Numbered from the stretch's first letter, positions 15,393-34,674 are shown. The stretch: 64,000 bases of DNA from Clostridia bacterium (GCA_017560765.1 JAFZEI010000015.1:397-64396); one strand, 5' to 3'. Numbers and translations: made by a program. The notes: generated by a model not told the origin, from the sequence alone.

Positions 15393-15426
15393 AAAAAAAC
15401 TCCTTCACACGATAATGTGACGGAGT
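15393..15426 (-). terminator. Terminator-like hairpin after deoC whose 3' arm contains the SD of the deacetylase gene
   Basis: Minus strand reads ACTCCGTCACA-TTATCG-TGTGAAGGAGT followed by TTTTTT, then ATG at 15392. The stem is 11 bp with 1 mismatch. Confidence 0.65.
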
Positions 15427-15474
15427 TTATTATTAGCAAAATTATTTCATTGAAACAGAAAATTAATGTAAATT

Positions 15475-16143: not shown

Positions 16144-16161
16144 TATATATCTTTTCCTTTC

Positions 16162-17382: not shown

Positions 17383-17400
17383 ATTATCCTCCCACAAAAT

Positions 17401-18582: not shown

Positions 18583-19669
18583 TTTCCAATATATCCGCTA
18601 TTCTTTTGCATGCAAAACCATCCCCGTAAGGATTGCTGGCATGTGCCATCTTGTTATATTCTTCTTTGTTATCCAGAAGCTTCGTAAAATTATTATATAT
18701 CACTTCTTCATCTGTGCCTACCAGCTTTAATGTGCCGGCTTCAATCCCTTCCGGGCGTTCCGTTGTATCTCTCATAACGAGAACAGGTTTACCCAAAGAG
18801 GGCGCTTCCTCCTGTATTCCGCCGGAGTCTGTAAGTATCATATAGCTGTTAGCCAAAAAGTTATGAAAATCGAGTACCTCCAATGGCTCAATAATATGAA
18901 TTCTGTCACAATTGCCCAACTCTTCTGAGGCTGCTTGTCTTACAACCGGATTCATATGAATGGGATAAATTGCCTTTACGTCAGGGTGTTCGTCTAATAC
19001 TCTACGTATTGCACGGAACATATTATGCATAGGCTGTCCCAAATTTTCTCTGCGGTGTGCTGTTATAAGAATCAGTCGGCTGTCTTTTGCCCATTCCAAC
19101 TCTTTATGAAAATACTCTGTCTTTACAGTAGTTTTTAAAGCATCTATAGCCGTATTTCCCGTAACATATATATACTTTTCATCTTTGCCTTCTTTTACAA
19201 GATTTTCTTTTGCGAGTAAGGTAGGTGCAAAGTTATATTTTGCAACAATAGATACTGCCTGTCTGTTAAACTCCTCAGGATAAGGACTGTATATATTAAA
19301 TGTTCTCAATCCTGCTTCAACATGTCCGATTGGAATTTGCAAATAAAAACAAGCAAGTGCAGTAACAAAAGTTGTGGAAGTATCACCATGAACAAGAACG
19401 ACATCAGGCTTTACTTGTTCTAATACAGCTTTAATACTGTTTAATATATTTGTAGTTATATCAAACAATGTTTGTTTTTCTTTCATTACAGATAAATCAT
19501 AATCCGGCGTTACATCAAAAGCGTCCAAAACTTGATCAAGCATTTGTCTGTGCTGTCCTGTAACACAAACGACAGTATTTATATTTTTTCTTTTTTTTAG
19601 CTCGTTTACAAGAGGACACATTTTAATTGCCTCAGGTCTTGTGCCGAAAACTAACATTACTGTTTTCAT
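18572..19669 (-). CDS. wecB: UDP-N-acetylglucosamine 2-epimerase (non-hydrolysing)
   Basis: MLVFGTRPEAIKM, HVEAGLRT and DSGGIQEEAPSLGKPVLVMRDTTERPE. Confidence 0.93.
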   Translation of the reverse strand: MKTVMLVFGTRPEAIKMCPLVNELKKRKNINTVVCVTGQHRQMLDQVLDAFDVTPDYDLSVMKEKQTLFDITTNILNSIKAVLEQVKPDVVLVHGDTSTTFVTALACFYLQIPIGHVEAGLRTFNIYSPYPEEFNRQAVSIVAKYNFAPTLLAKENLVKEGKDEKYIYVTGNTAIDALKTTVKTEYFHKELEWAKDSRLILITAHRRENLGQPMHNMFRAIRRVLDEHPDVKAIYPIHMNPVVRQAASEELGNCDRIHIIEPLEVLDFHNFLANSYMILTDSGGIQEEAPSLGKPVLVMRDTTERPEGIEAGTLKLVGTDEEVIYNNFTKLLDNKEEYNKMAHASNPYGDGFACKRIADILENEK

Positions 19670-19694
19670 TATAATACCTTCTTCTGTTTATAAA

Positions 19695-20918
19695 TCACAA
19701 ATAGTAAACACTATCTGAATTTATTCCGATATTTTGCGTGTCTAAAACAATTTTTCCCTTTAATTTGTCTGCATTTTCTTTTATCTCATTATGTTTTACC
19801 ATAATAACAACAAAATCTACAGATGATAAGAATTCATCCAAATCAAAAATCTGGTTTTCTGTTATGTTATGCTTTATAAATGGATCATACGCAACAAGAG
19901 GTTGTGCCAAATGTTTTTTCTGACACTCCAAAAGCTGCAGAGCCGGGGATTCTCTGTAGTCGTCCACATTCTCTTTATAAGTCAATCCGTATAAGCCTAC
20001 TTTTGATATGTCTGTCATGCCCTTTTCTTTCATTATGTCATGAATTCTTTCTAAAACAAAAGCCGGCATAGAATCATTTACTTTCATCGATTCCCATATC
20101 ACTTTTGTAAGGCTCGGGTAATCTCCTACCAAAAACCACGGGTCTACGGAAATGCAATGGCCTCCCACTCCGGGGCCCGGATTAAGAATATTTACCCTTG
20201 GGTGCATATTGCAAATTTTAATGATTTCATAAACATTCATATTGTCATTTCTGCAAATTTTTGCCAACTCATTTGCAAACGCTATATTTACTGCTCTGAA
20301 TGTATTCTCTACAACTTTTGTCATTTCTGCCGTTTTTATATCAGTAATAATTATTTCTCCTTGGCAAAAAGAAGCATAATACTCTTTTATTTTCTCACCG
20401 ATTTCTCTGTCATCTGCACCTATTGTTCTGTTGTTATGCAAAAGCTCATATACCATATTGCCGGGAATAATTCTTTCGGGGGCATGTACAAGATTTATAT
20501 CTTTTCCAATAATTAAACCTGCCTTTTCTATTACCGGCCTTACATATTTATCAATTGTTCCGGGAGAAACAGTAGACTCTATTACAATAGTAGCTCCTTT
20601 AGGGCAAACTTTAATTATCTCTTTTACTGCAGAATTCACATAGCATACATCTATTTTTTTTGAAAAACTGTCATACGGAGTTGGCACAGACACAATATAT
20701 GTATCTGTAACACAATATTCCGTAGTAAATTTGATACCGCTCTTCAAAGCTTTTTCAAACAGTTCATCCAAGCCGTCTTCTTTAAAAGTCGTTTTCCCCG
20801 CATTGAGAGTAGCCACAAGTTCCTTATTATAATCTGTTCCTACCACTTCTACCCCATGAGATGCCATCATAAGAGCAGTCGGAAGACCTATATACCCCAA
20901 GCCAATAACATTTACCAT
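19695..20918 (-). CDS. wecC: UDP-N-acetyl-D-mannosamine dehydrogenase-type nucleotide-sugar dehydrogenase
   Basis: VIGLGYIGLPTA and GVGGHCISVDP. Adjacent to wecB. Confidence 0.85.
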   Translation of the reverse strand: MVNVIGLGYIGLPTALMMASHGVEVVGTDYNKELVATLNAGKTTFKEDGLDELFEKALKSGIKFTTEYCVTDTYIVSVPTPYDSFSKKIDVCYVNSAVKEIIKVCPKGATIVIESTVSPGTIDKYVRPVIEKAGLIIGKDINLVHAPERIIPGNMVYELLHNNRTIGADDREIGEKIKEYYASFCQGEIIITDIKTAEMTKVVENTFRAVNIAFANELAKICRNDNMNVYEIIKICNMHPRVNILNPGPGVGGHCISVDPWFLVGDYPSLTKVIWESMKVNDSMPAFVLERIHDIMKEKGMTDISKVGLYGLTYKENVDDYRESPALQLLECQKKHLAQPLVAYDPFIKHNITENQIFDLDEFLSSVDFVVIMVKHNEIKENADKLKGKIVLDTQNIGINSDSVYYL

Positions 20919-20925
20919 TCTTAAA

Positions 20926-22434
20926 TTACCTCGTTTTCCTTAATTGTGCCTTTTCTTCTTTATTTAAACCAAATGCCCACAATGTGCCCAGATAAACTAC
21001 AGCAAAAGCCGCAACACCCAAAAGCATTTTCGCAAGTAGATTTTCGAAAAGAAGTGTGGCTGCAAAGCAAGCTATTCCGCTTAAAATCAAGCAAATCCAA
21101 ATTTTACCGAATATGTTTTTATACATTTTTATCATATTAATTTTATAAATCTTGTAATAATAAATGTTCATTATTATTACGCTGCCAACAAAATAGCTGA
21201 AAGCAGTTCCTACAGCTGCCGCATAATAATTCCAAAAATACGTACCAACCAAGGAAATTATAATATTCAGTACCGTAGTCAAAAGTAAAATCATGGTTCT
21301 GAACACCAATCTATTCTGGGCCCTTAATATAGATAAGCATACATTGACACACAATTCCAACAAGGAAGGTAACATGAGTATTAGAACAATGATATACACA
21401 TCCTCATAGCCATTCCCTAACCATAAATTGACAAAAGTTTTACCTAAAACAATAAAACCTGTCAATGCACCTCCTAATAAAGCAAATTGTATTCTGCCTG
21501 CCTTAAGAATCAATTTTTGAGTCGCAGAAAGATTTTCATCATCGTTTTTTAAGGTTTCAGTTACTGTAGGAAGCATAACACTTGAAATAGATGTAGAAAG
21601 CTGCTCAAACATAGAAAATATCAATAATCCCATAGAATAAACTGTAACTGCTCCTGCGTTGACGACAGCTCCTATTATTACGTTATCAAGATTTCCGTTG
21701 GCTTGAGATGCAATAGTAGTGATAAAAATCAGCATAGAATACTTAAATGATTCTTTAAACACGCTGTGTTCCCATCTGCTGAATTTTATTTTAACATTTA
21801 ACACACGATTTATATAAACAATTTCAACGCAAAGCATTCCTATTGTCAAAAACAAGTCTAACAATACAATAACCAAGGCATCTTTTATAAAATGCAAAGC
21901 AACATATATTGTCAATATTCTTGTAAGCAAGCGGATTATCTTTAATCCGTTGCCAAACATGAATTTATTAAAACCTGTTATCACGCCATTGAAAACATTT
22001 TCAAAAATATGAGCAATAATGCCGGCACACAAAAAGACATACAGCTGTTTAGCTTTTACTAGCTCTGCTGCTGTAAGACCTTTCCCATATATATTGTCAA
22101 TAAAAAAATAAATAATTCCGGTAGCAATTATAACGACTACGCTAATAATACCTGCTTGAAATAAGCTCATAGATATAAAATTAGGTATTTTTTCTTCTTC
22201 TTTGTCAGCTCTGTATCTTGATATATATCTCAATAATGTACCGCCAAGACCAATATCTAAAACCAACAGTGCTGCTGTAAAAGAAGACATAGTCTTGTAA
22301 ACACCATAAGCACTGTCGCCTAGCTTGTCAACAATATATGGAGTAACCAACAAACCGGAAACAGTATTAAGTATTATTAATATATAAGAAAGAATCGCAC
22401 CATATTTTACTTGCGATAATGAAATTTTTCTCAA
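20926..22434 (-). CDS. wzx: Polysaccharide flippase (Wzx, MOP superfamily)
   Basis: About 12-14 predicted TM helices. The likely start is TTG at 22434, overlapping the wzy TGA (TTGA), with GGGAGA upstream. The track ORF extends to GTG at 22485. Confidence 0.75.
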   Translation of the reverse strand: MRKISLSQVKYGAILSYILIILNTVSGLLVTPYIVDKLGDSAYGVYKTMSSFTAALLVLDIGLGGTLLRYISRYRADKEEEKIPNFISMSLFQAGIISVVVIIATGIIYFFIDNIYGKGLTAAELVKAKQLYVFLCAGIIAHIFENVFNGVITGFNKFMFGNGLKIIRLLTRILTIYVALHFIKDALVIVLLDLFLTIGMLCVEIVYINRVLNVKIKFSRWEHSVFKESFKYSMLIFITTIASQANGNLDNVIIGAVVNAGAVTVYSMGLLIFSMFEQLSTSISSVMLPTVTETLKNDDENLSATQKLILKAGRIQFALLGGALTGFIVLGKTFVNLWLGNGYEDVYIIVLILMLPSLLELCVNVCLSILRAQNRLVFRTMILLLTTVLNIIISLVGTYFWNYYAAAVGTAFSYFVGSVIIMNIYYYKIYKINMIKMYKNIFGKIWICLILSGIACFAATLLFENLLAKMLLGVAAFAVVYLGTLWAFGLNKEEKAQLRKTR

Positions 22435-23657
22435 AGTTTTTCTCCCGTATTTTTTTCTTTTGCTCGCCTTATTATGCCAACACACAATCCAATAAGCAGG
22501 AAGAAGTTTGGTTCTAATAAATACGAACTTGACAAAAATAATTTAAAGAAGCTATTTGTGCAAAGCAAAGCTATAATGAAAGTTTTTTCTTTACTGCTCT
22601 CACATTTTGACAATGCACTAATATAAAGCGCTATCAATATTCCGAATATTAAAGAACCGCCAAGCACACCAAAGGACACCCATAATTCCAAAATAATGTT
22701 ATGCGCATATGCCGTTGTAAACTCTCTGTCTGCTGCAACACCCAGTCCCCAAGGATTTTCCTTTATTACAGACAGTAAGGTTTTATTAATATTATCACGT
22801 CCATTTGGGTCTGCTATTTCTCCTTCTTTAAAACTGTCCAAAATTCTGGTACTCATACCCATACTTGAAACTATCTCCCTCAAAAAGTCAATAATCTCAT
22901 CCATAAACAAAAAGACAACAAGAAGAAATAAAATAATTGCTAAATAAGCGACTATTTTGTTTTTTGTTTGCTTTATAAAGACAAAATATGCAAAAGCAAA
23001 AACTATTATTGCAACAACAGGGCCTCTTGTGCCATATGATATCAATAGCACAAATCCTATAATCATGGCAATCAGATCAATTTTTTTATATTTTTCAAAG
23101 AAATATCCGGCTGTCAGTGCAACATGAGGAAGGAGTTTATATGCCATACCCATATTGTCATCACCAATTTGCAATGTATCTGTTCCGAAAATTATTAAAC
23201 TTGCCAAATCTGCAAAAATTGCATAAACAGAAAGGACGTGTAAATAGTCAATCACCTTTTCACTTCTGTATGCCGCACCTACAAGAAATAAGGTGAGAAT
23301 GAATAAAATAAAATCTCGTCTTTCCTCTGATAATACTGTAGCAACCTCTGTATAAGCTGCGTATTGTATTCCTAATTGATATCCGGCTGCAACAGCAAAG
23401 TATAGAAATATATCAGATAGCCGCAATCGCTCAAAAAAGTAAGAGACAGAAAGCAAAATTGCCGTAATAAAAAACAAATAAACTACAATTTCTGTAATGT
23501 AGTTAAAAAACGGCAACCTGTACATGACAAGTTTTAAGTCAGAAATTAATGTATTGTTTGCCCAAACCAAGCAAAACAAAAATAAAAAAAACATTTCTGA
23601 ATTAAAAGGTTTCTCTAATATATTTATATTTTTTGGATATTCTCTATTGATTGCCAT
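22431..23657 (-). CDS. wzy: O-antigen polymerase/ligase-like membrane protein (Wzy)
   Basis: 408 aa polytopic membrane protein with a large loop (GVAADREFTTAYAHNIILE), typical of the Wzy/O-antigen ligase family. Confidence 0.65.
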   Translation of the reverse strand: MAINREYPKNINILEKPFNSEMFFLFLFCLVWANNTLISDLKLVMYRLPFFNYITEIVVYLFFITAILLSVSYFFERLRLSDIFLYFAVAAGYQLGIQYAAYTEVATVLSEERRDFILFILTLFLVGAAYRSEKVIDYLHVLSVYAIFADLASLIIFGTDTLQIGDDNMGMAYKLLPHVALTAGYFFEKYKKIDLIAMIIGFVLLISYGTRGPVVAIIVFAFAYFVFIKQTKNKIVAYLAIILFLLVVFLFMDEIIDFLREIVSSMGMSTRILDSFKEGEIADPNGRDNINKTLLSVIKENPWGLGVAADREFTTAYAHNIILELWVSFGVLGGSLIFGILIALYISALSKCESSKEKTFIIALLCTNSFFKLFLSSSYLLEPNFFLLIGLCVGIIRRAKEKNTGEKL

Positions 23658-23674: not shown

Positions 23675-24703
23675 TTACTTACCAATTAATATAGGCAACA
23701 CAAAAGTCCATAAGCCTGTTCTGCATAAAAAAAGGAAAAATCTGTATTTATAAGATAATTTTCTGTACATTTCCTTTTTATTCAAAACATCCCACGGCTC
23801 TTTATTTAAATATTCTTTTACAATATGTCTTTTTTCTTTTGATGTCTTAGGACACTTTTCAGAAAGCAATTCGCAAGATACAACAGTATAAAATTCCATT
23901 GCAAGATTTTTAGCATAACACAGTGTATTTTCTTTTATAAAAGCTGCATTTTCTTTTTTTAAGAGCTCTGCATATCTGCAAAGTATTTCTTCCCTATTTC
24001 CATAATATTTTCTCATGGAGGAACTTTCATATATCACATAGCAGTACCATATATCCAGAACGACACAAATATTACTGCACTTGTTTGTAAATTGCATATT
24101 CCATAAAACGTCTTCCCCTAAGGGTTGTCCCACAGGGAAAGGATTATTCTTCGCAACATCACTCTTTATGAGTCTTGCACATGGACCTCTGCCTATATAG
24201 CCATATTTTTTTACGTTTTTATATTCGGTCCGATTTGTCATCAAAAAGTAACTGCGCAAATCATCCATATTTTCTTTTGTATAAATATGATATTGTTTGT
24301 TTTCTTGTAACGGAATACTAACACTTTCCCCCGGTTTTGTTTTTGCAACTGCCGCAATCACCATGTCAGAATTTGTCTCTTTTATGATTTGAAGTCCCTC
24401 TGAAATTGCTTGAGGAAGCAGTACATCATCTGAATCCAAATACATAATATAGTCTCCGGTTGCAAGTTCTGTACCGTAATTTCTCGCAGCGCTTACTCCT
24501 TTGTTTTCACAATGAAAAACACGAATTCTATCATCGAGACTTTTTTGCAAATCACAAAAAGCAGCAGTTTCTTCATTTGAGCCATCGTCAATTATTATAA
24601 TTTCAACATCTTTGAAAGTCTGATTAAAAAGACTTTCCATGCAACGGTTCATATATTCACAATTAACATTGTATACAGGTATTATTACGCTGACAACAGC
24701 CAT
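23675..24703 (-). CDS. Family 2 glycosyltransferase
   Basis: VSVIIPVYN, IIIDDGS and YLDSDD motifs. Confidence 0.85.
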   Translation of the reverse strand: MAVVSVIIPVYNVNCEYMNRCMESLFNQTFKDVEIIIIDDGSNEETAAFCDLQKSLDDRIRVFHCENKGVSAARNYGTELATGDYIMYLDSDDVLLPQAISEGLQIIKETNSDMVIAAVAKTKPGESVSIPLQENKQYHIYTKENMDDLRSYFLMTNRTEYKNVKKYGYIGRGPCARLIKSDVAKNNPFPVGQPLGEDVLWNMQFTNKCSNICVVLDIWYCYVIYESSSMRKYYGNREEILCRYAELLKKENAAFIKENTLCYAKNLAMEFYTVVSCELLSEKCPKTSKEKRHIVKEYLNKEPWDVLNKKEMYRKLSYKYRFFLFLCRTGLWTFVLPILIGK

Positions 24704-24715
24704 ATTTTCCTCTTT

Positions 24716-25612
24716 TTAATACTTTATTCTAACGTAAATTTTAGCCAGCAAGCGTCTGGTACAAGCCAACATGTATCTCAAATATTGAAATACGCACACT
24801 TTTTTATCAAATACATACGAAACGATATTTACGCTTACTCCGCAATCCATAAGCTTTTTGTTCTTATTGTTATACTTAGTTCGTGAAAAAACCGTCATCC
24901 CGCTTTCTGAATATTTTTCAATTTCACCGGGAAACTTTTCTGTATACATAAACGGATATGAAATAAATAAAACACTGTTCTCTTTTAAAAACGATATTAC
25001 AGCATCAACATCATTTTCTCCCATATTGTATTCATATCTGGCACAATATATCCCTTTATATCCTAATTTTGAAACTATCGCTACAGTTTCTGTAGTATAT
25101 GCTTCTATCAGAAATCTTTCTTTTAATTCTGTTTTTTCTCCTATACACAACGAAAGTACATCAAGGAAATTCAAAATCTGTTCCTCTGTAAACATTCCGA
25201 ATAAATCGAGCATAAAAACAGTATCATTATACTCTGATAGCATATCAATAATATTTTGTAAGGATATAGGAGTAAGTCCCTTTGTGGATAAAGAAAAAAG
25301 AGTCTGTTTCATAAACCAGTCAAAGTCATATACATTGGGCTTTTCAAAAACCTCCATACGTCTCATTGACTTTTCATCAACAGTATGAGCAACGGCAACA
25401 TATTTGTTGTCAGTTGTTTTTCCGATGTCAAATTCAAAAACCTTAACACCTTTTTTATACCAACGCAAAAATGCCTCTTTTGTATTGGTTTGTCTTACAC
25501 CGGCAAAAGCACCGAGACCGTGCATACAATAATTAAATTTACCTTTTAATTCATGAACTGTCATCGTATTAAAGTTTTGCTGCCTCTGCAATTGCCAAAT
25601 CGTTTTCATCAT
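24716..25612 (-). CDS. GDPD/PI-PLC-like phosphodiesterase-fold protein
   Basis: HGLGAF...NTKEAF...VKVFEFDIGKTTDNKYVAVAH resembles the H-R/G, E-x-D and H-D pattern of glycerophosphodiester phosphodiesterases. The start is uncertain (ATG 25612/25609 or ATG 25564). Confidence 0.45.
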   Translation of the reverse strand: MMKTIWQLQRQQNFNTMTVHELKGKFNYCMHGLGAFAGVRQTNTKEAFLRWYKKGVKVFEFDIGKTTDNKYVAVAHTVDEKSMRRMEVFEKPNVYDFDWFMKQTLFSLSTKGLTPISLQNIIDMLSEYNDTVFMLDLFGMFTEEQILNFLDVLSLCIGEKTELKERFLIEAYTTETVAIVSKLGYKGIYCARYEYNMGENDVDAVISFLKENSVLFISYPFMYTEKFPGEIEKYSESGMTVFSRTKYNNKNKKLMDCGVSVNIVSYVFDKKVCVFQYLRYMLACTRRLLAKIYVRIKY

Positions 25613-26309
25613 CTATTTCATACCAACGGTCTGCATCAATTTTAACTATCCTTATATCATTGTTCCCGTAATATATCATTGCACCAAGAACAAGCTCATA
25701 GTAACTGTTTATATTTCCTATTTTTACATATAAATCAATCATAGGAAAATACTGGTTGCAAATAAAATTCTTACTAAACTTGTACACGTTTACTGTTTTA
25801 AGTGCCTCGTCATACGGGAATCCCTCATATTGGTCTCTTTTTATAACAAGGGAACTTGCCTTTATTCCATCGCAAGAAAGTATAACAGAGCCATTCATCG
25901 TTACAGGGTTATACTCACTTACCAATATATTACATTCCGCTTCTCCCGACAATATTTTTTCTATCAGATCATAACCATAATACAAATCACATTCAAGCAT
26001 AATGCAATCATCATGTATATAATCCCTCGCCAAAAAAAGAGAGTAGACATTGTTAGTTTTATCATAATCTGAATTTTCTACATATGTAATAGACATGCCC
26101 TTCCAGTTATTACCTATGTGTTTTATTATATATTCTGCCATATGGCCAACAACTATCACTACATTGTCAATTTTGCGCGTTGCAGATAAAAGATTTAAAG
26201 TATTTTCAAGAAGAGGAGTTCCCTTAACCGGAACCATACTTTTAGGCATATGATCTGTAAGCGGCCTAAGACGTTTACCAAAACCGGCAGCCAAAATAAT
26301 CGCTTGCAT
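25569..26309 (-). CDS. LicC-like nucleotidyl(cytidylyl)transferase
   Basis: MQAIILAAGFGKRLRPLT, TNNVYSL and WYEIDDENDL parallel the pneumococcal LicC motifs (AGLGTRLRPLT, YNNFYSL, YEIDSVQDY) as I recall them. Confidence 0.7.
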   Translation of the reverse strand: MQAIILAAGFGKRLRPLTDHMPKSMVPVKGTPLLENTLNLLSATRKIDNVVIVVGHMAEYIIKHIGNNWKGMSITYVENSDYDKTNNVYSLFLARDYIHDDCIMLECDLYYGYDLIEKILSGEAECNILVSEYNPVTMNGSVILSCDGIKASSLVIKRDQYEGFPYDEALKTVNVYKFSKNFICNQYFPMIDLYVKIGNINSYYELVLGAMIYYGNNDIRIVKIDADRWYEIDDENDLAIAEAAKL

Positions 26310-26327
26310 TTTTACTTACTCCTTTCT

Positions 26328-27212
26328 TTAATTAAAAAATTTTATGCACTTTTTAGGAGAATCCAACATATTAACCGGATGCTCAGGCTTTCTTCTTTCT
26401 TCAGACGGCAATAAAGAATAATCCCCATACATTTCTTTAAGAAATGTATCTGAATTAATTAATGCCATAAGTTTTTCTCCTCTAAATAAAACCTCGCCGT
26501 ATCCCTCGTCATAACTTTTTTTATTAAAACGTCTTCCGGTCTCGTACATTCTTGACGTATAACGTGTATATATTCCCGATGGTTTATGTTTCTTTATAGC
26601 AACCGCCTTGTCATTCAGCTCAAATATATCGCGAGGTCCGACAATTATTTTAGCAAAAAGACCGAGAATACTACTTACAATATCCCTTATCTTCTTATAC
26701 GTCTTGTTATATTTGTCGTGCCTTACATTTCTCACTTTAGTATTGTGAAATGCAGTTCTTAAAAATCCTGTTTTAAATTTTTTCCACTTAAAAACCAATT
26801 CGTTTGCAGGTTTTTCTTCATTAATAAATAAATCAATGTATATTTTTTTCTCCAACAACTCTTTCGTTGTTACCCTGTCAAGAAAATGAATTTTTAATAC
26901 TTTAATTTCTGAATCTTCTGCAAGTACTTGTCTAAGTTTAGTATATTCCGTCCTTGTCATCATTACGTCAGCATCATCATCCCAAGGAACGAAATCACCA
27001 TGTCGCATAGCTCCCAAAAGCGTTCCGTCAGCAAGAGAATACTTTAAATCATGCTCTTTGCAAAAACGGTCAAAAGATAATAGCAAGCGCATCATATCTT
27101 CATGTGCTTCTTTTAAGTTATACTTCTCCTCATAGCTGCCTACTTTACTGTAAGGATATGGGATTATATAGTTAATAATCGCTTTTGTCTTTGTGTCGGC
27201 GCCGCTCATCAA
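26328..27212 (-). CDS. licD: LicD-family phosphotransferase
   Basis: YSLADGTLLGAMRHGDFVPWDDDADVMM is the LicD signature. Confidence 0.85.
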   Translation of the reverse strand: MMSGADTKTKAIINYIIPYPYSKVGSYEEKYNLKEAHEDMMRLLLSFDRFCKEHDLKYSLADGTLLGAMRHGDFVPWDDDADVMMTRTEYTKLRQVLAEDSEIKVLKIHFLDRVTTKELLEKKIYIDLFINEEKPANELVFKWKKFKTGFLRTAFHNTKVRNVRHDKYNKTYKKIRDIVSSILGLFAKIIVGPRDIFELNDKAVAIKKHKPSGIYTRYTSRMYETGRRFNKKSYDEGYGEVLFRGEKLMALINSDTFLKEMYGDYSLLPSEERRKPEHPVNMLDSPKKCIKFFN

Positions 27213-27732
27213 ATGCCTTCCATCTTTCCTCTGCAGTTTCCAAATATATTAGAGAACGTCTTTTTTCTGCAAAATTTTCAAAAGTATCAATTTGCTTTGC
27301 GGGTATTCCTGCCCAGACAGCACCCGCCGGAATGTCTTTATTAATCAAACTATTAGCTCCGATTACAGTATCAGACCCAATTCTTACATTTCCCAATACA
27401 ATAGTTCCCGAACCAATAAAAACATTATCCTGTATATCTATACAACCCAGTTGCTCTTTAAATTCAGAATTATTTTTCTCTCCATGGTATTTGAAATTTA
27501 AAACACCATGAATCGCGTCATGTACAACAAACTTTACACCGGAAGCTACTTCAACATTATTTCCAAATGAAATAAGCTCGGAATGTAAAGGAACAAGCAT
27601 TGCAGGTAATCTTACATTTTTACCTACGTGATGAAAAATCTTCTTTTTCCTTGCGTAATTTCCTCTTTTAAGTTGATCAAAAAAAAGAAAAAATCTTATA
27701 GATCTGAACATTCTTTTTATATCCATTGCCAA
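27172..27732 (-). CDS. Left-handed beta-helix (hexapeptide) acetyltransferase, O-acetyltransferase-like
   Basis: Hexapeptide repeats IGSGTIVLGNVRIGSDTVIGANSLINKDIPAGAVWAGIPAK. There is no NeuD/PglD-type N-terminal domain. Confidence 0.75.
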   Translation of the reverse strand: MAMDIKRMFRSIRFFLFFDQLKRGNYARKKKIFHHVGKNVRLPAMLVPLHSELISFGNNVEVASGVKFVVHDAIHGVLNFKYHGEKNNSEFKEQLGCIDIQDNVFIGSGTIVLGNVRIGSDTVIGANSLINKDIPAGAVWAGIPAKQIDTFENFAEKRRSLIYLETAEERWKAFDERRRHKDKSDY

Positions 27733-27739: not shown

Positions 27740-28519
27740 CTAAATATACTCTCCGGCTGTTATTCTGAATGTACTGCCTGTCATCATGGCAGAGGAATCT
27801 GACATAAGGTAAATCAATGCCTCCACATAGTCATGTCTTTCCAACATTCTGCCCATCGGAATTGTGTTTGCCGCACGTTTTCTTAATTGTGCCTCAGTTT
27901 CTCCCTGCTGTTTTCTAAGGGCAACTTCACCCTCTGTTGGTGTCCATCCCAAAGTAAGATAGTTGCAACGTATCATTTCCGAAGCATAATTATGAGCAAT
28001 ATGTTCCATAAGAGTAATTAAAACGCCCTTGGAACAAGCGTATGCAGCTCTGTCCTTTTCGCCACCCCACGCATGAGCAGAACCTGTAAAAACTATGGAA
28101 CCTCCACCATTCATTCGCATATATTTTATTGCCTGTTGACAACAAAAAAAGCAAGCCCTGAAATTTACGTTCATTACCTGATTAAAAGTTTCTTCATCAC
28201 AAGTATCTAAAGGAGAAATCGGCGTTACACCTGCATAATTGAAAAAACCGTCTATCTTCCCAAACTTATTTGCAGCTTCGTCAAATAACTTCTTACAATC
28301 TTCTACTTTTTCCAGATCTGTATGGACAAAAATTGCTTCACTTCCATAAGTCTTGATAATTTTAATTGACTTACGAGCAGCGTCTTCATCTCTGCCACCT
28401 ATAACCACTTTAGCTCCGGCTTTTGCAAACTCTTCGGAAATTGTCTTTCCTACTCCTTTTGTACCACCGGACACTACTATAACTTTTTCTTTTAACGGTT
28501 TATTCATATCAAAAATCAA
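27740..28519 (-). CDS. Short-chain dehydrogenase/reductase
   Basis: SGGTKGVGK (TGxxxGxG-like), NYAG and catalytic YACSK (YxxxK). Confidence 0.85.
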   Translation of the reverse strand: MIFDMNKPLKEKVIVVSGGTKGVGKTISEEFAKAGAKVVIGGRDEDAARKSIKIIKTYGSEAIFVHTDLEKVEDCKKLFDEAANKFGKIDGFFNYAGVTPISPLDTCDEETFNQVMNVNFRACFFCCQQAIKYMRMNGGGSIVFTGSAHAWGGEKDRAAYACSKGVLITLMEHIAHNYASEMIRCNYLTLGWTPTEGEVALRKQQGETEAQLRKRAANTIPMGRMLERHDYVEALIYLMSDSSAMMTGSTFRITAGEYI

Positions 28520-28523
28520 CGCC

Positions 28524-29813
28524 TTATAATTCTAATGCTTTTTTTACATCAAAGCCTTTAAGCAACATGTCATTTCCGTTTGTATCAAAGACCTTAACAC
28601 AATCCATATATTCTCTAAGTTTTTCCCCCAACTCCTGTTTCGAATCACATACAATGTATAATCTTGTCATAACTTGCTTTTCATTACCTATCCATTCTTT
28701 AGGAATATTATCTCCTTCATATAAACGCTGTGCATTTGCAATAATATTTTTATCGTTTTTCCATTTATCCAAACCCTCAATTTTGCCAATGCGTCCCTCT
28801 TTGAGCAAAAACCAAAGTGTAGCAGCCCATTTTCCGCGCAAATAAGGATCATCCGAGGATAAAAGATCCATTTTTCCCTCAGACCCCGTCAAAGCAAATC
28901 TAATAAGCATTTCTCTTTGATCAAAACCTTGAATTTCTTTAATTAGCAGATGCGGTGCCTCTCCCTGAAGTCTAAAGCCTGTATCGTACACATAAAACTC
29001 ACCATTTTCATAAAAAGCAGAAAGCATGAGCACTCCATTACGTATTCCGATGTCCTTGAACATCATTACTGCATTCTCGTGCATTCTCTCAAAATATTCC
29101 TTCATATGCTTTGAGGGGTATGTGCCTCCAAGACACACACGGCTCAACCCGGGCTGTTCATCAGTAGTATATCTGTCATATATACAAGATGCGCTGCATT
29201 GTCCGTCCTTAAACGTATAATACATTCCCATGTCTTCACATTGCATGTATTTTTCTACTATAAAGCGTTTTTTCTTTGAGGCTTCCAAAGCTTTTTCAAC
29301 GGCAGGTTTTAAGTCTTCTTTACTGTAACAAACTGTCATTCCCACACCACCACCGTTATCTACAGGCTTTACCATTACAGGAAATACAATTTTATCAATA
29401 TCTCTGTCATTTAAATCTGCATCAAGATAAAACTCCGGTATTCCGTGAATGCCATACCTTTCACAAGTAGCTTTAAAAACATCTTTAAAGGCAAAAACAT
29501 CAACAATTTGCTGCGTGGCATAGCAAGGAAAACCTAAAGCATTACAAACTTTACAATAGGAAGGAACAAGAATATCAGCAACGCCTACCAGCACACCGTC
29601 AACTTTTTCTTCCATTGCCAAAGCAATAACACCGGGGACATCCATTCCGTCAACATCAAAACTTTTCCAGGAATACTTTTTTGCATCATCAGTATGGCGA
29701 CCGCTTGTAACAATGGTCTTAATTCCCATTTCGTTTGCCAACTTAACAAGTGCTGTTGTTTCAGGATTTCCTCCTAAAATCAATAACTTTTTACCTTCAA
29801 ATTCACTACTCAT
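28524..29813 (-). CDS. ATP-grasp ligase
   Basis: KKLLILGG pre-ATP-grasp region, FPVMVKPVDNGGGVGMTV and DTGFRLQGE. I prefer ATG at 29813 (AGGAGA 6 nt upstream) over the track start at 29828. Confidence 0.7.
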   Translation of the reverse strand: MSSEFEGKKLLILGGNPETTALVKLANEMGIKTIVTSGRHTDDAKKYSWKSFDVDGMDVPGVIALAMEEKVDGVLVGVADILVPSYCKVCNALGFPCYATQQIVDVFAFKDVFKATCERYGIHGIPEFYLDADLNDRDIDKIVFPVMVKPVDNGGGVGMTVCYSKEDLKPAVEKALEASKKKRFIVEKYMQCEDMGMYYTFKDGQCSASCIYDRYTTDEQPGLSRVCLGGTYPSKHMKEYFERMHENAVMMFKDIGIRNGVLMLSAFYENGEFYVYDTGFRLQGEAPHLLIKEIQGFDQREMLIRFALTGSEGKMDLLSSDDPYLRGKWAATLWFLLKEGRIGKIEGLDKWKNDKNIIANAQRLYEGDNIPKEWIGNEKQVMTRLYIVCDSKQELGEKLREYMDCVKVFDTNGNDMLLKGFDVKKALEL

Positions 29814-29842
29814 ATAAATTCTCCTCATTTATACAGTTTCTG

Positions 29843-30613
29843 TTATATAGTTATTCTTTCTCCCACAGTCATAAACATAAAATTATTATTTGGATATTGT
29901 TCTTTCATAATGTGGTAAAATTTCCCGGGATTTCCTCCATGGCACGGAAACATTCCGTAATGACTGGGAATAGTAATTTTGGGCTGTAACGCATTACTTA
30001 AATCTGCACAATCCTGTTCATTTAAATTGCCAAATGCTCCGTTTATCGGTGCAATCAACATATCTATTTCTCCAAAAGCCATATATTCTTCTGCTTTTTC
30101 AAGATGCAAACAAGTATCTCCGGCCATATATATTATTTTACCATCTACGGAAATTACCACTCCAAATGCATCCGGTGCGGCATCAGAATGATCGCAGCTT
30201 ACAAAATGCAAATCAAAACCATCCAAAGAGACGCTTTGTCCTGCTTTTACATAATGCACATTGCTTTCCTTCATTTGCAAACGTAAAACTTCTTCTCTGC
30301 ATCGTGTAGATGCAAAAAGCTTAGTATTGGGATTCGACATAAGCAGCGGTATAGAATCTATATCAAAATGGTCTACATGTGCATGAGTTGTTATCAAATA
30401 ATCAAATTCTATATCAAAAGCACCAAATAATTTAGGGAGCATTCTTTTAAAACCAATATTACCTTCAATTCGCTCTACACATTCCGACAAATACAAATCT
30501 ATGCCTAAAAGCTTCCCGTATTTATTTTTTATTATATACCCCGCCTGTCCCACATAAAAAAGATGTGTTTCTCCAAGCCGTGCAGACATAACATTTGTTA
30601 CGAAATCATTCAT
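29843..30613 (-). CDS. Metallo-beta-lactamase-fold hydrolase
   Basis: THAHVDHFD (HxHxDH), a later CDH, and GD/H motifs. Length 256 aa. Confidence 0.8.
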   Translation of the reverse strand: MNDFVTNVMSARLGETHLFYVGQAGYIIKNKYGKLLGIDLYLSECVERIEGNIGFKRMLPKLFGAFDIEFDYLITTHAHVDHFDIDSIPLLMSNPNTKLFASTRCREEVLRLQMKESNVHYVKAGQSVSLDGFDLHFVSCDHSDAAPDAFGVVISVDGKIIYMAGDTCLHLEKAEEYMAFGEIDMLIAPINGAFGNLNEQDCADLSNALQPKITIPSHYGMFPCHGGNPGKFYHIMKEQYPNNNFMFMTVGERITI

Positions 30614-30629: not shown

Positions 30630-31253
30630 CTATACAGTATTTTGTGACTCTACGTATTCAGCAAAATCCTCCATTGTAACAGAAGTTTCTGAGGATATTC
30701 CTTCCCGCTTAAAAACTGCAGCTACAGTTTTGAAAAGAATTTTTATATCCAATAAAAGGGAAACATTATTCACATAATATAAATCTAATTGAAATCGTTC
30801 CTCCCAAGACAGTAAGTTCCTGCCATTTGCCTGTGCATACCCTGTTAATCCCGGCCTTACATCATGTCTGTGTTTTTGTTCTTCTGAATAGTATGGCAAG
30901 TATTTTACCAATAAAGGCCTGGGGCCGACAATTGACATATCGCCTTTTAATATATTTATTAATTCCGGTAGCTCATCGAGAGAAGATGCTCTCAAAAACT
31001 TTCCATACGGGACCAATCTTTCTTCATCCGGTAAAAGATTATCGTTCGTATCTTTCTCGCAAGTCATTGTCCTGAATTTAATAAGCTTAAAAACCTTCTC
31101 TTTTTTACCCGGTCGTGGTTGTACAAAAAAAGGATTGCCTTTCATAACAATAGCTCCTGCGACAATCATGATTATTATAATCGGCGAAAAAACAATTAAG
31201 GCAGATAAAGAAAAAACAAAATCAAGTATACGTTTAATAAACTTTATGTACAT
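30630..31253 (-). CDS. Small monotopic phosphoglycosyl transferase (PglC/WbaP-C-terminal type, initiating sugar-phosphate transferase)
   Basis: One N-terminal hydrophobic helix, KLIKFRTM, DELPELINILKGDMSIVGPRP and RPGLTGYAQ. Confidence 0.9.
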   Translation of the reverse strand: MYIKFIKRILDFVFSLSALIVFSPIIIIMIVAGAIVMKGNPFFVQPRPGKKEKVFKLIKFRTMTCEKDTNDNLLPDEERLVPYGKFLRASSLDELPELINILKGDMSIVGPRPLLVKYLPYYSEEQKHRHDVRPGLTGYAQANGRNLLSWEERFQLDLYYVNNVSLLLDIKILFKTVAAVFKREGISSETSVTMEDFAEYVESQNTV

Positions 31254-31254
31254 A

Positions 31255-32442
31255 TTAAAAACAACTCTTTATTATCTCAATTACAACATCTTGCTCTTGC
31301 TCTGTCATTTTTATATCACTGGGCAAGCACAATCCCCTATTAAATATATCTTCACATACACAAAAATTATCAGCTTGTACAACACCACAATTTTTAAATA
31401 CAGGTTGCATATGCATCGGCTTCCATATTGGTCTCGACTCAACATTGTACGAAGCCAATTTTTCGCGAATTTCCTCAGGACAAGACTTTCCTTTTTCGCT
31501 AATATATGTAAATTCCTTTTCTTGGCGAATTTGCTTGCACATTGCTTCTTTATCAATAATTATGCAACTAAGCCAATAATTTGGTTCCATTCTTTTCTCA
31601 TCATAAGGATTCATTTTTAAAGGAAGATTCTTTAAACCTTCTTTGTATCTTTCATATATAGCCTTTTTGGCTTTTACATGCTCATCAAGATGTAATAATT
31701 GTCCTCTGCCTATCCCGGCAAGGACATTGCTTAATCGATAATTGTACCCCACAATCTCATGCTGATACCATGGAGCATCTTCTTTTGCTTGTGTAGACAT
31801 CTTTCTTGCCAAGTCTATGGCGTTTTTATCATTGCTTAATAACATTCCGCCGCTACTGCAAGTAATAATTTTGTTTCCGTTAAAGCTTATTACACCATAA
31901 TCTCCATAGTTGCCCGTTTGTACTCCTTCAAAAGTTGCACCTAAAGACTCCGCCGCATCTTCAATCAAAACAGCATTGTGTCTTTTGCAGATAGCTTTTA
32001 TTTCGTCTAATTTTGCAGGCACGCCATAAAGGTTCGTCACAATAACAGCCTTTGCATCACCGTAAATCTCAAAAGCTCTTTCAAGTGCTTTCGGATCCAT
32101 ATTCCATGTTTCTGTTTCGCTATCAATAAAAACAGGCTCTGCTGCTTCATAAACAACGGGATTTACCGTTGCAATAAAAGTCATATCCATACAAAAAACT
32201 TTATCTCCCGGTTTAACACCGGCTAATTTAACTGCTAAATGCAAAGATGTTGTTCCTGAAGACAATGCCAAAGAGTAATGACATCCTACTTTATCACAAA
32301 TTGCTTGCTCTAATTGATTTATATTTTCACCCAATGTGCTGACCCAATTTGTATCAAAAGCTTCATCAACAAAAAGTCGTTCCTCAGAATGCATCGTAGG
32401 TGTTGCTAGCCATATTTTTTTATCAAAGGGTTTAATTACCAT
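31255..32442 (-). CDS. DegT/DnrJ/EryC1-family sugar aminotransferase (PglE-like)
   Basis: Fold type I PLP enzyme. SFNGNKIITCSSGG (PLP-Lys context) and LCLPSD near the C-terminus. Confidence 0.9.
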   Translation of the reverse strand: MVIKPFDKKIWLATPTMHSEERLFVDEAFDTNWVSTLGENINQLEQAICDKVGCHYSLALSSGTTSLHLAVKLAGVKPGDKVFCMDMTFIATVNPVVYEAAEPVFIDSETETWNMDPKALERAFEIYGDAKAVIVTNLYGVPAKLDEIKAICKRHNAVLIEDAAESLGATFEGVQTGNYGDYGVISFNGNKIITCSSGGMLLSNDKNAIDLARKMSTQAKEDAPWYQHEIVGYNYRLSNVLAGIGRGQLLHLDEHVKAKKAIYERYKEGLKNLPLKMNPYDEKRMEPNYWLSCIIIDKEAMCKQIRQEKEFTYISEKGKSCPEEIREKLASYNVESRPIWKPMHMQPVFKNCGVVQADNFCVCEDIFNRGLCLPSDIKMTEQEQDVVIEIIKSCF

Positions 32443-32446
32443 TTTT

Positions 32447-34477: not shown

Positions 34478-34674
34478 CTTTTGCCTCCTTTTCTTTAATA
34501 CTTTTTTATTTCTTTTTTGTATGCTTCGCCAACCTAAACATATATTAATTTTGTTTAGATGCTTTTGTAAAAAATATATCTTTTTGTTGTCTGAAACGAG
34601 CGTAAAGCTACGATTTAAGACAAAACAAAAGTCATACAAAAAAAGCACAAACAGAACAAACCATTCGCTGTTTA

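What the first reader, a model, noticed from the sequence alone, without database searches (positions are those of the whole stretch)
24716..27212. LicC-like / LicD / phosphodiesterase-fold trio without choline kinase or transporter
LicD (DGTLLGAMRHGDFVPWDDDADV) and a LicC-like cytidylyltransferase (AAGFGKRLRPLT, TNNVYSL, YEIDDENDL) indicate transfer of a phospho-alcohol from a CDP-activated donor onto the polysaccharide. Candidates are phosphocholine, phosphoethanolamine, phosphoglycerol or a phosphonate.

No LicA kinase or LicB permease is present in the operon or the window. Instead the next gene encodes a GDPD/PI-PLC-like phosphodiesterase-fold protein (FEFDI, VAVAH).

That protein could generate the phospho-alcohol from a host or dietary phosphodiester by a PLC-like cut, or it could trim the polymer. 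The substituent identity cannot be read from the sequence.
Basis: partly seen in the sequence, partly recalled or inferred. Interest (0 to 1): 0.55.

Follow-up and report, generated by a model that had tools for sequence, protein, structure and literature searches.

The report
LicD-coupled phosphodiesterase in a capsule locus
Three adjacent genes in a gut/rumen Clostridia capsule operon form a conserved module that activates a phospho-alcohol, attaches it to the polysaccharide and probably re-processes that phosphodiester with a previously unannotated enzyme, but the substituent is still unknown.

Summary
Window 24716-27212 (- strand) holds three tightly spaced genes:
- a full-length LicD;
- a LicC-like cytidylyltransferase (best solved relative LicC, 1jyk);
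- a 282-aa protein with no Pfam or NCBIfam hit.

The AlphaFold model of the third protein (pLDDT 94) matches only GDPD structures. It keeps two catalytic His and an acidic metal triad.

No choline kinase, permease or PEP mutase was found among the window ORFs of 150 aa or more that were scanned.

New findings:
- The GDPD-like protein belongs to a small, unannotated family (about 43 clusters).
- It lay next to LicD, or one cytidylyltransferase gene away, in all 15 distinct related loci examined.
- It is fused to LicD in both domain orders in two proteins.
- The cytidylyltransferase is interchangeable. It is LicC-like here, a small TagD-like PF01467 enzyme elsewhere, and absent from two loci.
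- The protein is cytoplasmic, with an amphipathic C-terminal helix.

Best reading: a CDP-alcohol phosphotransfer module, most likely glycerol-phosphate. The GDPD-fold enzyme would work with LicD at the membrane on the phosphodiester that LicD makes.

I rate it a new variant of a known kind, of moderate interest.

The parts
26328..27212 (-). LicD-family phosphotransferase. The start is uncertain: 27188, 27209 or 27212. NCBI aa.
   Evidence: Pfam LicD, 1.8e-26, full profile. FKRP catalytic motif matched. A 100%-identical NCBI protein is named 'LicD family protein'. It belongs to a subclade of about 64 clusters at 44% identity or more.
25569..26309 (-). LicC-like (PF00483/PF12804) cytidylyltransferase that activates the phospho-alcohol.
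   Evidence: best PDB relative is LicC 1jyk, then PntC 6pd1. The invariant E106 and E205 sit at LicC D105 and D192. NCBI name: 'phosphocholine cytidylyltransferase family protein', MBR5785235.1.
24716..25564 (-). GDPD-fold phosphodiesterase of an unannotated family (282 aa). The mechanical ORF extends to 25612. It ends in a C-terminal amphipathic helix, residues about 254-281.
   Evidence: No Pfam or NCBIfam hit. AF2 pLDDT 94.3. Foldseek returns GDPD matches only, 1.6e-11. Invariant residues: H15, E44, D46, H60, D120, E154. Fused to LicD in P0049 and P0054. Amphipathic helix with muH about 0.5 and no TM segment.
23675..24703 (-). GT2 glycosyltransferase. It follows the GDPD-like gene directly in most of the closer related loci.
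   Evidence: Pfam Glycos_transf_2, 6.9e-36. Gene order in L001-L008 and L015-L017.
27172..27732 (-). Hexapeptide-repeat acyl/acetyltransferase, an optional member of the cassette.
   Evidence: Pfam Hexapep. Present in L004, L005, L007, L008, L016 and L023. Absent from L001-L003, L006 and L015.
27740..28519 (-). SDR oxidoreductase, part of the linked conserved cassette. Substrate unknown.
   Evidence: Pfam adh_short, 4.9e-44. Scores 407-474 bits against the cassette loci L004-L010. No close characterised structure.
28524..29828 (-). ATP-grasp ligase, the most conserved protein of the linked cassette. Substrate unknown.
   Evidence: Pfam CPSase_L_D2 and Dala_Dala_lig_C. Scores 735-790 bits in all cassette loci. 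Fused to the MBL protein in L007. No close characterised structure.
29843..30613 (-). MBL-fold (Lactamase_B_3 / UPF0173) metal hydrolase, part of the linked cassette.
   Evidence: Pfam hits. PDB relatives are only UPF0173 hydrolases. Conserved position upstream of the ATP-grasp gene.
30630..34648 (-). PglF/CapD-like 4,6-dehydratase (32447-34648), DegT aminotransferase (31255-32442) and small Bac_transf initiating phosphoglycosyltransferase (30630-31253). Together they start the repeat unit on a 4-amino-4,6-dideoxy-HexNAc.
   Evidence: ORFs. Pfam annotations of the 87-98% identical locus L001.
14601..23657 (-). Rest of the Wzx/Wzy locus: Wzy (22431-23657), Wzx (20926-22485), UDP-ManNAc dehydrogenase (19695-20918), UDP-GlcNAc 2-epimerase (18572-19669), an unassigned ORF with no Pfam hit on record that may be a glycosyltransferase (17401-18582), a second UDP-sugar dehydrogenase (16162-17397), a DeoC-family aldolase (15475-16143) and a polysaccharide deacetylase (14601-15392).

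Best explanation
The three genes form a conserved module for CDP-alcohol phosphotransfer inside a Wzx/Wzy-type polysaccharide operon that resembles teichoic-acid synthesis. The operon comes from an uncultured Clostridia bacterium.

Step 1 (inferred from homology): the LicC-like enzyme makes a CDP-activated phospho-alcohol from a precursor that needs no dedicated kinase or importer. My estimates for the head group are glycerol-phosphate about 0.5, an amine-bearing group (P-ethanolamine, AEP or P-choline) about 0.3, and another polyol-phosphate about 0.2.

Step 2 (inferred from homology): LicD transfers the phospho-alcohol onto the undecaprenyl-PP-linked repeat unit at the cytoplasmic face of the membrane.

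Step 3 (inferred from fold, conserved catalytic residues, strict adjacency and fusion to LicD): the GDPD-fold protein is held at the membrane by its amphipathic C-terminal helix. It acts together with LicD on the phosphodiester LicD has just made. It could trim surplus or wrongly added phospho-alcohol units, or cut on one side of the phosphate, before the next GT2 extends the unit. It is not a precursor-scavenging enzyme.

Shown here:
- the folds, motifs and gene order;
- the LicD/GDPD fusions;
- the interchange of cytidylyltransferase types.

Not shown here:
- any substrate;
- which bond is cut;
- the identity of the substituent.
For: Fold and catalytic residues:
- Pfam, PDB and fold assignments.
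- H15, N27, E44, D46, H60, D120 and E154 are invariant in 40 close members. They are nearly invariant in 40 distant representatives.
- A family profile reaches Pfam-GDPD proteins. It also matches a sister clade at hhalign probability 99.9%.

Linkage to LicD:
- In the 15 distinct related loci examined, LicD is directly upstream, or one cytidylyltransferase gene away. The loci are L001 (with its duplicates L002 and L003), L004-L010, L014-L019 and L023.
- In two further, distant loci it is adjacent (L022) or fused (L021).
- Fusions exist in both orders: P0049 is LicD then GDPD-like, and P0054 is GDPD-like then LicD.
- 21 of 43 GDPD-like clusters share a longest-contig length with a cluster of the LicD subclade, which suggests they lie on the same contigs.

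Interchangeable cytidylyltransferase:
- LicC-like: window, L009, L010, L019.
- Small PF01467 type: L004, L005, L007, L008, L014, L016, L021, L022, L023.
- Neither type within about 10 kb: L006 and L015 (L015 checked only by the phmmer screen).
- The small enzyme's best solved relatives are TagD 1coz (2e-18) and TarD, over the full length.

No kinase needed:
- Homologues of the LicC-like enzyme at 53-59% identity sit beside a TagF-type Glyphos_transf or a LicD, never beside a kinase.
- Pneumococcal and Oenococcus loci need only a cytidylyltransferase for glycerol-phosphate (PMC1391919; PMC4047060).

Location: no signal peptide, no TM segment, amphipathic basic C-terminal helix.
Against: - No biochemical data exist for any member of the family.
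- Canonical GDPD chemistry on a sugar-P-glycerol product would simply undo LicD's work. The proposed processing therefore needs either altered bond specificity or a trimming/editing role. Neither is demonstrated.
- A fusion of two pathway enzymes does not prove that their steps are consecutive.
- The small cytidylyltransferases fall below NCBI's TagD equivalog cut-off: 66-72 bits in L004, L005, L007, L008 and L016, and 125 bits in L014, against 165.
- The LicC-like clade keeps Glu/Glu plus Tyr/Tyr at the positions that contact the amine in PntC and LicC. This weakens the glycerol-phosphate assignment.
- The linked MBL, ATP-grasp and SDR genes remain unexplained. They may change what the substituent is.
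Confidence: 0.45

Rival explanations
1. Precursor supply, UgpQ-like. The GDPD-fold enzyme hydrolyses cytoplasmic or membrane glycerophosphodiesters to sn-glycerol-3-phosphate. The cytidylyltransferase converts this to CDP-glycerol and LicD transfers it. The result is a linear three-step pathway in which each enzyme does its family's textbook reaction.
For: - GDPD fold and catalytic residues.
- The trio of cytidylyltransferase, LicD and GDPD-like is conserved even in distant loci.
- The alternative cytidylyltransferase is most like TagD.
- No other G3P-supply gene is in the locus.
Against: - G3P is a central metabolite. Known glycerol-phosphate capsule loci carry only a cytidylyltransferase.
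- The protein tracks LicD, not the cytidylyltransferase, which can be several kb away or not found.
- The canonical G3P- and phosphate-binding motifs are replaced: HR by HG, ENT by TNT, ExK by DLF.
- An amphipathic membrane helix is unnecessary for a soluble-substrate enzyme.
- No Ugp/GlpT-type importer was found.
Confidence: 0.2
2. Non-hydrolytic role. The GDPD-fold enzyme transesterifies the phosphodiester that LicD installs, as PI-PLC and sphingomyelinase-D-type relatives do. This would release the alcohol and leave a cyclic phosphate, a phosphomonoester ('uncovering') or a new inter-residue phosphodiester on the repeat unit.
For: - Same coupling evidence as the best explanation.
- Substrate-binding motifs differ from hydrolytic GDPDs while the catalytic His pair and metal site are kept.
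- Several clade-specific invariant arginines (R24, R69, R176, R228) suggest a strongly anionic, non-canonical substrate.
Against: - There is no precedent in polysaccharide biosynthesis.
- The cyclising relatives belong to other branches of the superfamily. The nearest structural matches here are ordinary GDPDs.
- Nothing in the sequence shows which bond is attacked.
Confidence: 0.12
3. The locus decorates the polysaccharide with phosphocholine or phosphoethanolamine. The phosphodiesterase-fold protein replaces LicA/LicB by cutting phosphocholine or phosphoethanolamine, PLC-style, out of host, dietary or own phospholipid-derived diesters.
For: - LicC is the best solved relative of the cytidylyltransferase.
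- Acidic and aromatic residues are kept at the amine-contacting positions.
- LicA/LicB were not found in the window.
- The amphipathic helix could bring the enzyme to membrane phospholipids.
Against: - GDPD-family enzymes release the head-group alcohol and keep the phosphate on glycerol (general knowledge of the family; structural neighbours).
- Weak PI-PLC-X similarity appears in only 3 of 40 members.
- The protein is cytoplasmic and no transporter was found.
- In sister loci the cytidylyltransferase is TagD-like rather than LicC-like.
- LicC-like homologues sit beside a TagF-type glycerol/ribitol-phosphotransferase in a Treponema locus.
Confidence: 0.08
4. The GDPD-like protein is a non-catalytic structural or scaffolding partner of LicD.
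For: Tight adjacency and fusion to LicD. Loss of the canonical HR, ENT and ExK motifs.
Against: Both catalytic histidines, the E/D/D metal triad and E154 are essentially invariant across more than 80 sequences down to about 25% identity. This is the signature of a working active site.
Confidence: 0.03

Closest known systems
Lic-1 (licABCD) phosphocholine decoration pathway of H. influenzae and S. pneumoniae
   Same: A LicC-fold cytidylyltransferase sits next to a LicD-family transferase. The logic is the same: activate a phospho-alcohol as a CDP-alcohol, then transfer it to a glycan.
   Different: - No LicA kinase or LicB permease was found in the 64-kb window.
- LicC's Asp105 and Asp192 are Glu here.
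- The cytidylyltransferase is replaced by a TagD-like enzyme in sister loci.
- A third, GDPD-fold enzyme is an obligate partner.
Glycerol-phosphate or alditol-phosphate side chains and teichoic-acid-like units in Gram-positive capsule/EPS loci (pneumococcal gct and gtp1-3, TarI/J plus LicD3, O. oeni TagD plus LicD)
   Same: Wzx/Wzy locus with an AAT-sugar/bacillosamine-type initiating system, a cytidylyltransferase and a phosphotransferase. No kinase is needed because the precursor is a central metabolite.
   Different: None of those described systems includes a GDPD-fold enzyme. The small cytidylyltransferases here are below the TagD equivalog threshold.
Glycerophosphodiester phosphodiesterases (GlpQ, UgpQ; B. 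subtilis GlpQ trims wall teichoic acid; phage K gp155 GDPD domain)
   Same: Same TIM-barrel fold, with Foldseek E values from 1e-11 to 1e-6 for the listed matches. Two catalytic His and an acidic metal site are in equivalent motifs.
   Different: - Below the Pfam GDPD threshold.
- HR, ENT and ExK motifs are replaced.
- Cytoplasmic, with a C-terminal amphipathic helix.
- Encoded inside a biosynthetic operon and fused to LicD in some organisms.
- The nearest relatives are an equally uncharacterised 'AHALG...YTNS...FEVDL' clade with N-terminal extensions; some Pfam-scanned relatives of that kind carry a Cu_amine_oxidN1 domain.
PntC phosphonate (AEP) cytidylyltransferase with LicD-type transfer
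   Same: Glu/Glu at the two amine-contacting positions, as in T. denticola PntC. PntC is the second-best solved relative.
   Different: No PEP mutase, decarboxylase or AEP transaminase was found in the window.
Mannose-6-phosphate 'uncovering' logic (phosphodiester installed, then one side removed) and FKTN/FKRP mis-capping by CDP-glycerol
   Same: This is only a conceptual analogy. A LicD-family transferase makes a phosphodiester that a second enzyme could uncover or edit. LicD-family enzymes are known to accept the wrong CDP-alcohol.
   Different: The enzymes are unrelated, and there is no evidence here for either reaction.

Membership tests
LicD family (PF04991) | Full-length match above Pfam's gathering score | tested here: met
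   94.1 bits against a cut-off of 22.6, profile positions 1-227 of 227.
LicD family (PF04991) | Conserved catalytic segment LGAxRHxxxIPWDxDxD shared with FKRP | tested here: met
   LADGTLLGAMRHGDFVPWDDDADV aligns with FKRP residues 297-327.
LicD family (PF04991) | Uses a CDP-alcohol donor to phosphorylate a glycan hydroxyl | not testable with these tools
   This needs an enzyme assay.
LicC, CTP:phosphocholine cytidylyltransferase | NTP-transferase fold with the GxGxRxxPxxxxxPK signature, and LicC as closest solved relative | tested here: met
   AAGFGKRLRPLTDHMPK. 1jyk at 9e-14 and 7e-24 over the full length.
LicC, CTP:phosphocholine cytidylyltransferase | Choline pocket with small Asp105 and Asp192 plus an aromatic box | tested here: not met
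   Both positions are invariant Glu (E106, E205), as in PntC. Tyr203 and Tyr204 stand at the positions of the LicC Tyr-Trp pair that precedes D192.
LicC, CTP:phosphocholine cytidylyltransferase | Genomic partnership with LicA choline kinase and LicB permease | tested here: not met
   None was found among the window ORFs of 150 aa or more that were scanned. None is beside three homologues at 53-59% identity. The rest of the genome was not searched.
PntC, phosphonate cytidylyltransferase | Glu at the two amine-contacting positions | tested here: met
   E106 and E205 correspond to Tde-PntC E104 and E196.
PntC, phosphonate cytidylyltransferase | Clustered with PEP mutase, decarboxylase and AEP transaminase | tested here: not met
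   No such genes were found in the window.
TagD, glycerol-3-phosphate cytidylyltransferase (applies to the alternative cytidylyltransferase of sister loci) | NCBIfam TIGR01518 equivalog score of at least 165.4 | tested here: not met
   66-72 bits for L004, L005, L007, L008 and L016, and 125 bits for L014.
TagD, glycerol-3-phosphate cytidylyltransferase (applies to the alternative cytidylyltransferase of sister loci) | HxGH and RTEGISTT motifs, with TagD/TarD as the best full-length structural relatives | tested here: met
   FHLGH and RTPGICSS. 1coz at 2e-18 and 2b7l at 4e-14, ahead of ECT and CCT.
GDPD (PF03009) | Sequence match above Pfam's gathering score | tested here: not met
   14.3 bits against 23.6 for the window protein. 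25 of 40 members give sub-threshold hits, best 5.5e-5.
GDPD (PF03009) | GDPD TIM-barrel fold | tested here: met
   AF2 pLDDT 94.3. The 50 best Foldseek matches listed are almost all GDPD-family entries, TM about 0.65. The family profile reaches Pfam-GDPD proteins.
GDPD (PF03009) | Two catalytic His and an acidic metal-binding triad | tested here: met
   H15, H60, E44, D46 and D120 are invariant. E44 and D46 align with UgpQ 'EFD'. The assignment rests on motif alignment, not on a residue-level structural superposition.
GDPD (PF03009) | Canonical substrate-binding motifs HR(G), (E)NT and ExK | tested here: not met
   They are HG, TNT and DLF here.
PI-PLC X domain | Sequence or structural match to PI-PLC | tested here: not met
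   Only 3 of 40 members give weak hits, best 0.056. There is no PI-PLC among the 50 best structural matches listed.

The most novel reading that the evidence does not exclude
The GDPD-fold protein may be a new kind of biosynthetic enzyme. It would be physically coupled to LicD and would remodel the freshly installed phosphodiester on the lipid-linked repeat unit. Possible outcomes are uncovering it to a phosphomonoester, cyclising it, or swapping the alcohol by transesterification. In that case the final substituent of these gut-Clostridia polysaccharides would not be the group carried by the CDP donor.
Probability: 0.2. Interest if true: 0.7.

Novelty: new variant of a known kind. Interest (0 to 1): 0.45.

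Why it matters
LicD-type phospho-decorations such as phosphocholine, ribitol-phosphate and glycerol-phosphate shape how hosts and phages recognise bacterial surfaces.

This work shows that a subclade of LicD enzymes in gut and rumen Clostridia always comes with a dedicated, unannotated GDPD-fold partner. Cultured species carry it too, namely Ruminococcus gauvreauii and Ruminococcus sp. OA3. In some organisms the partner is fused to LicD.

Four consequences follow:
- It defines a new protein family that could receive a Pfam or NCBIfam model.
- It flags the automatic name 'phosphocholine cytidylyltransferase' as unsafe for this clade.
- It gives a concrete three-protein system, in culturable strains, to test whether polysaccharide phosphodiesters are edited or remodelled before export.
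- If the enzyme does more than hydrolyse, it would add a new step to glycan phosphodiester chemistry.

Tried and rejected
- Looked up the window's own GDPD-like protein (298-aa and 282-aa forms) in the contig index. It is not on record, so I used homologues instead.
- The Foldseek afdb50 library was unavailable.
- hhalign of the family profile against the single E. coli UgpQ sequence aligned only the ENT...ExD segment, at low probability. I used it only for motif correspondence.
- I first read the small PF01467 enzymes as bona fide TagD, and hence CDP-glycerol as settled. NCBIfam scores below the equivalog cut-off made me downgrade this to 'TagD-like, most probable'.
- PDB sequence searches for the ATP-grasp, MBL and SDR proteins found no characterised close relative. 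Their role stays open.
- The promoter/terminator scan of the locus gave counts equal to shuffled controls. It adds no information beyond the short intergenic gaps.
- Genome and metagenome pattern scans recovered only 5 and 6 extra loci, so the co-occurrence statistics rest on 15 distinct loci, two distant loci and a contig-length proxy.
- Literature searches for LicD together with GDPD/glycerophosphodiesterase found no paper describing such a module.
- I rejected PI-PLC membership, the inactive-scaffold idea and extracellular scavenging. The reasons are given under the rival explanations.


Full report
**What is there**

The flagged interval lies in a long minus-strand operon that runs from about 34648 to 14601. 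In transcription order the genes are:
- a PglF/CapD-like dehydratase, a DegT aminotransferase and a small Bac_transf initiating transferase;
- an MBL-fold hydrolase, an ATP-grasp ligase, an SDR and a hexapeptide acyltransferase;
- LicD (26328-27212), a LicC-like nucleotidyltransferase (25569-26309) and a 282-298-aa ORF (24716-25564/25612);
- a GT2, Wzy, Wzx, UDP-ManNAc dehydrogenase and UDP-GlcNAc 2-epimerase;
- further sugar-modifying and sugar-nucleotide genes.

Gaps between the three genes of interest are 18 nt and 4 nt, with 12 nt to the next GT2. A promoter/terminator scan gave nothing above shuffled controls.

The window matches a 64,686-bp contig of an NCBI MAG labelled 'Clostridia bacterium'.

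- LicD is a full-length Pfam match.
- The nucleotidyltransferase is closest to S. pneumoniae LicC, then MurU and the phosphonate enzyme PntC. With a family profile, LicC aligns over the full length at 7e-24.
- The third protein has no Pfam or NCBIfam hit and no sequence relative in the PDB.

Its family is small: 43 clusters among 5.8 billion proteins. An alignment shows invariant H15, E44, D46, H60, D120 and E154, among others.

Evidence for the fold:
- AlphaFold2 gives pLDDT 94.3.
- The 50 best Foldseek PDB matches listed are almost all glycerophosphodiesterase-family entries, including B. subtilis GlpQ, the phage K gp155 domain and S. aureus LpgD.
- 25 of 40 members give sub-threshold Pfam GDPD hits.
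- A profile search of 1.84 billion representatives finds 43 close members, then a tail of Pfam-GDPD proteins.
- A sister clade aligns at hhalign probability 99.9%.

The catalytic set stays essentially invariant in 40 distant representatives. The canonical HR, ENT and ExK motifs are replaced by HG, TNT and DLF.

Homologues and the 4-nt spacing put the start at 25564.

Pfam scans of 20 further window ORFs of 150 aa or more, plus eight locus genes, show no choline kinase, permease or PEP mutase.

**What the surroundings add**

I examined 15 distinct related loci. L002 and L003 duplicate L001, which is near-identical to the window. The others were L004-L010, L014-L019 and L023. LicD is immediately upstream of the GDPD-like gene in all of them, or separated from it only by the cytidylyltransferase.

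Two distant members behave the same way:
- L022 reads LicD, GDPD-like, small cytidylyltransferase.
- L021 reads small cytidylyltransferase, then a GDPD-like::LicD fusion.

Fusions occur in both orders, P0049 and P0054.

The LicD partner forms its own subclade of about 64 clusters at 44% identity or more, followed by a drop to 35%. 21 of the 43 GDPD-like clusters share a longest-contig length with a cluster of that subclade.

By contrast, the cytidylyltransferase floats:
- It is LicC-like in the window, L009, L010 and L019.
- It is a 131-136-aa PF01467 enzyme, adjacent or up to about 7 kb downstream, in L004, L005, L007, L008, L016, L021, L022 and L023.
- It is fused to a GFO/IDH/MocA oxidoreductase in L014.
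- Neither type was found within about 10 kb in L006 and L015, which have two LicD genes.

Most loci also keep MBL, ATP-grasp and SDR directly upstream. MBL and ATP-grasp are fused in L007. L014, L021 and L022 lack them. The minimal module is therefore cytidylyltransferase plus LicD plus GDPD-like.

The cassette occurs in cultured Ruminococcus sp. OA3. It also occurs next to a LicD that NCBI assigns to Ruminococcus gauvreauii. That LicD is indexed in 127 blocks of the assembly collection.

**Which substituent?**

The two cytidylyltransferase types serve orthologous LicD/GDPD pairs, so they probably make the same CDP-alcohol.

Evidence pointing to glycerol-phosphate:
- The small enzymes carry HxGH and RTPGICSS.
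- Their best full-length solved relatives are TagD and TarD, ahead of ECT and CCT. They fall below NCBI's TagD equivalog cut-off, however.
- Homologues of the LicC-like enzyme at 53-59% identity are widespread and are auto-named 'phosphocholine cytidylyltransferase family'. They sit beside a TagF-type glycerol/ribitol-phosphotransferase, beside a LicD, or in a small polysaccharide-type cluster with a flippase-family gene, never beside a kinase.
- Pneumococcal and Oenococcus loci show that a cytidylyltransferase alone suffices for glycerol-phosphate, and that LicD pairs with TagD or Abp1/2 without LicA/LicC.
- The third enzyme has a GDPD fold.

Evidence against:
- The LicC-like clade has invariant Glu at the two positions where LicC has Asp105 and Asp192. 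T. denticola PntC has Glu104 and Glu196 there, contacting the amine.
- The neighbouring Tyr203 and Tyr204 stand at the positions of LicC's Tyr-Trp pair. An amine-bearing head group therefore remains possible.

My estimates are glycerol-phosphate 0.5, amine-bearing group 0.3 and other polyol-phosphate 0.2.

**How the phosphodiesterase most likely works**

The protein has no signal peptide or TM segment. It ends in a basic amphipathic helix with muH about 0.5. It should therefore sit on the cytoplasmic membrane face, where LicD meets the lipid-linked repeat unit.

Its linkage to LicD is tighter than its linkage to the cytidylyltransferase. The two-way fusions and the altered substrate-binding motifs point the same way. 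The enzyme most likely acts on the phosphodiester LicD makes, by trimming, editing or one-sided cleavage, before the following GT2 acts.

I hold this at 0.45. The rivals are:
- UgpQ-like G3P supply, 0.20;
- non-hydrolytic remodelling such as uncovering, cyclisation or transesterification, 0.12;
- an inactive scaffold, 0.03.

About 0.12 is left for something else. None of these can be separated without enzyme assays.

**Comparison and novelty**

The module works like the LicC/LicD half of the Lic-1 pathway. It also resembles glycerol- or alditol-phosphate modules of Gram-positive capsule loci. It fails LicC membership on the choline pocket and on the LicA/LicB partnership. The third enzyme fails Pfam GDPD membership by score and by three motifs, while meeting the fold and the catalytic residues.

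No paper in the searchable library links LicD to a GDPD in one module.

I class it as a new variant of a known kind: an ordinary CDP-alcohol decoration system with a new, obligate, unannotated partner enzyme. Interest is moderate at 0.45. The most novel reading left open is biosynthetic remodelling of the phosphodiester, with probability about 0.2 and interest 0.7 if true.

Noticed in passing
window 27740-30613 (-); L007 5745-7805: The MBL-fold hydrolase, ATP-grasp and SDR form a conserved block directly upstream of LicD in most related loci. The ATP-grasp is the most conserved protein of the whole locus (735-790 bits across loci where the GDPD-like protein is only about 45% identical). It is fused to the MBL protein in L007. 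No characterised close relative was found. The block may N-acylate the 4-amino sugar or modify the substituent.
   Followed up: partly
window 27172-27732 (-) versus L001-L003: The hexapeptide acyltransferase gene is present in the window but missing from loci that are otherwise 87-98% identical (L001-L003). It is also absent from L006 and L015. It is an optional, indel-type member of the cassette. Its 3' end overlaps the longest LicD ORF by 41 nt.
   Followed up: partly
alignment A2 (P0093, P0099, P0103 and others); P0096, P0101: The nearest relatives of the family are a GDPD-like clade whose members carry N-terminal extensions of about 25-50 residues. Its consensus is 'IAHALG...YTNS.EAF...FEVDL...H.W'. 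Some Pfam-scanned relatives of this kind (P0096, P0101) carry a Cu_amine_oxidN1 domain. The clade also appears uncharacterised (hhalign 99.9% to A1).
   Followed up: partly
L014 7038-9136: Here the TagD-like cytidylyltransferase is fused to a GFO/IDH/MocA oxidoreductase and is followed by an SDR, then LicD and the GDPD-like gene. This hints that at least some versions make a reduced polyol-phosphate donor. A SIR2/STAND NTPase gene lies upstream.
   Followed up: no
L019 1-11605: The most distant locus (GDPD-like 26% identical) combines FkbH_N, a split transketolase, an SDR, a hexapeptide transferase, LicD, a LicC-like enzyme, the GDPD-like gene and a GDSL esterase. The chemistry around the core trio is different here.
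   Followed up: no
window 6923-14543 (-): Two very large adjacent genes (1826 aa and 735 aa) carry GH94 supersandwich/catalytic and glucoamylase-like domains. They lie just downstream of the polysaccharide locus. They may form a split beta-glucan phosphorylase or synthase.
   Followed up: no
window 14601-17397 (-): The distal end of the locus carries a DeoC/LacD-family aldolase, a second UDP-sugar dehydrogenase and a polysaccharide deacetylase. An aldolase is unusual in a capsule locus. It is conserved in L001.
   Followed up: no
window 50451-54587 (-): A 1378-aa protein whose only Pfam hits are ricin-type beta-trefoil lectin repeats near its C-terminus.
   Followed up: no
homologues P0230, P0242, P0248, P0262, P0276: JGI labels several 245-264-aa homologues of the LicC-like cytidylyltransferase 'choline kinase', and NCBI labels the clade 'phosphocholine cytidylyltransferase family protein'. 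Neither name is supported by the contexts examined.
   Followed up: partly
window 42344-43108 (-) and 43252-44127 (+): Two ORFs of 254 and 291 aa have no Pfam family at E<=1e-4. They lie between the transketolase genes and the translation-factor genes.
   Followed up: no
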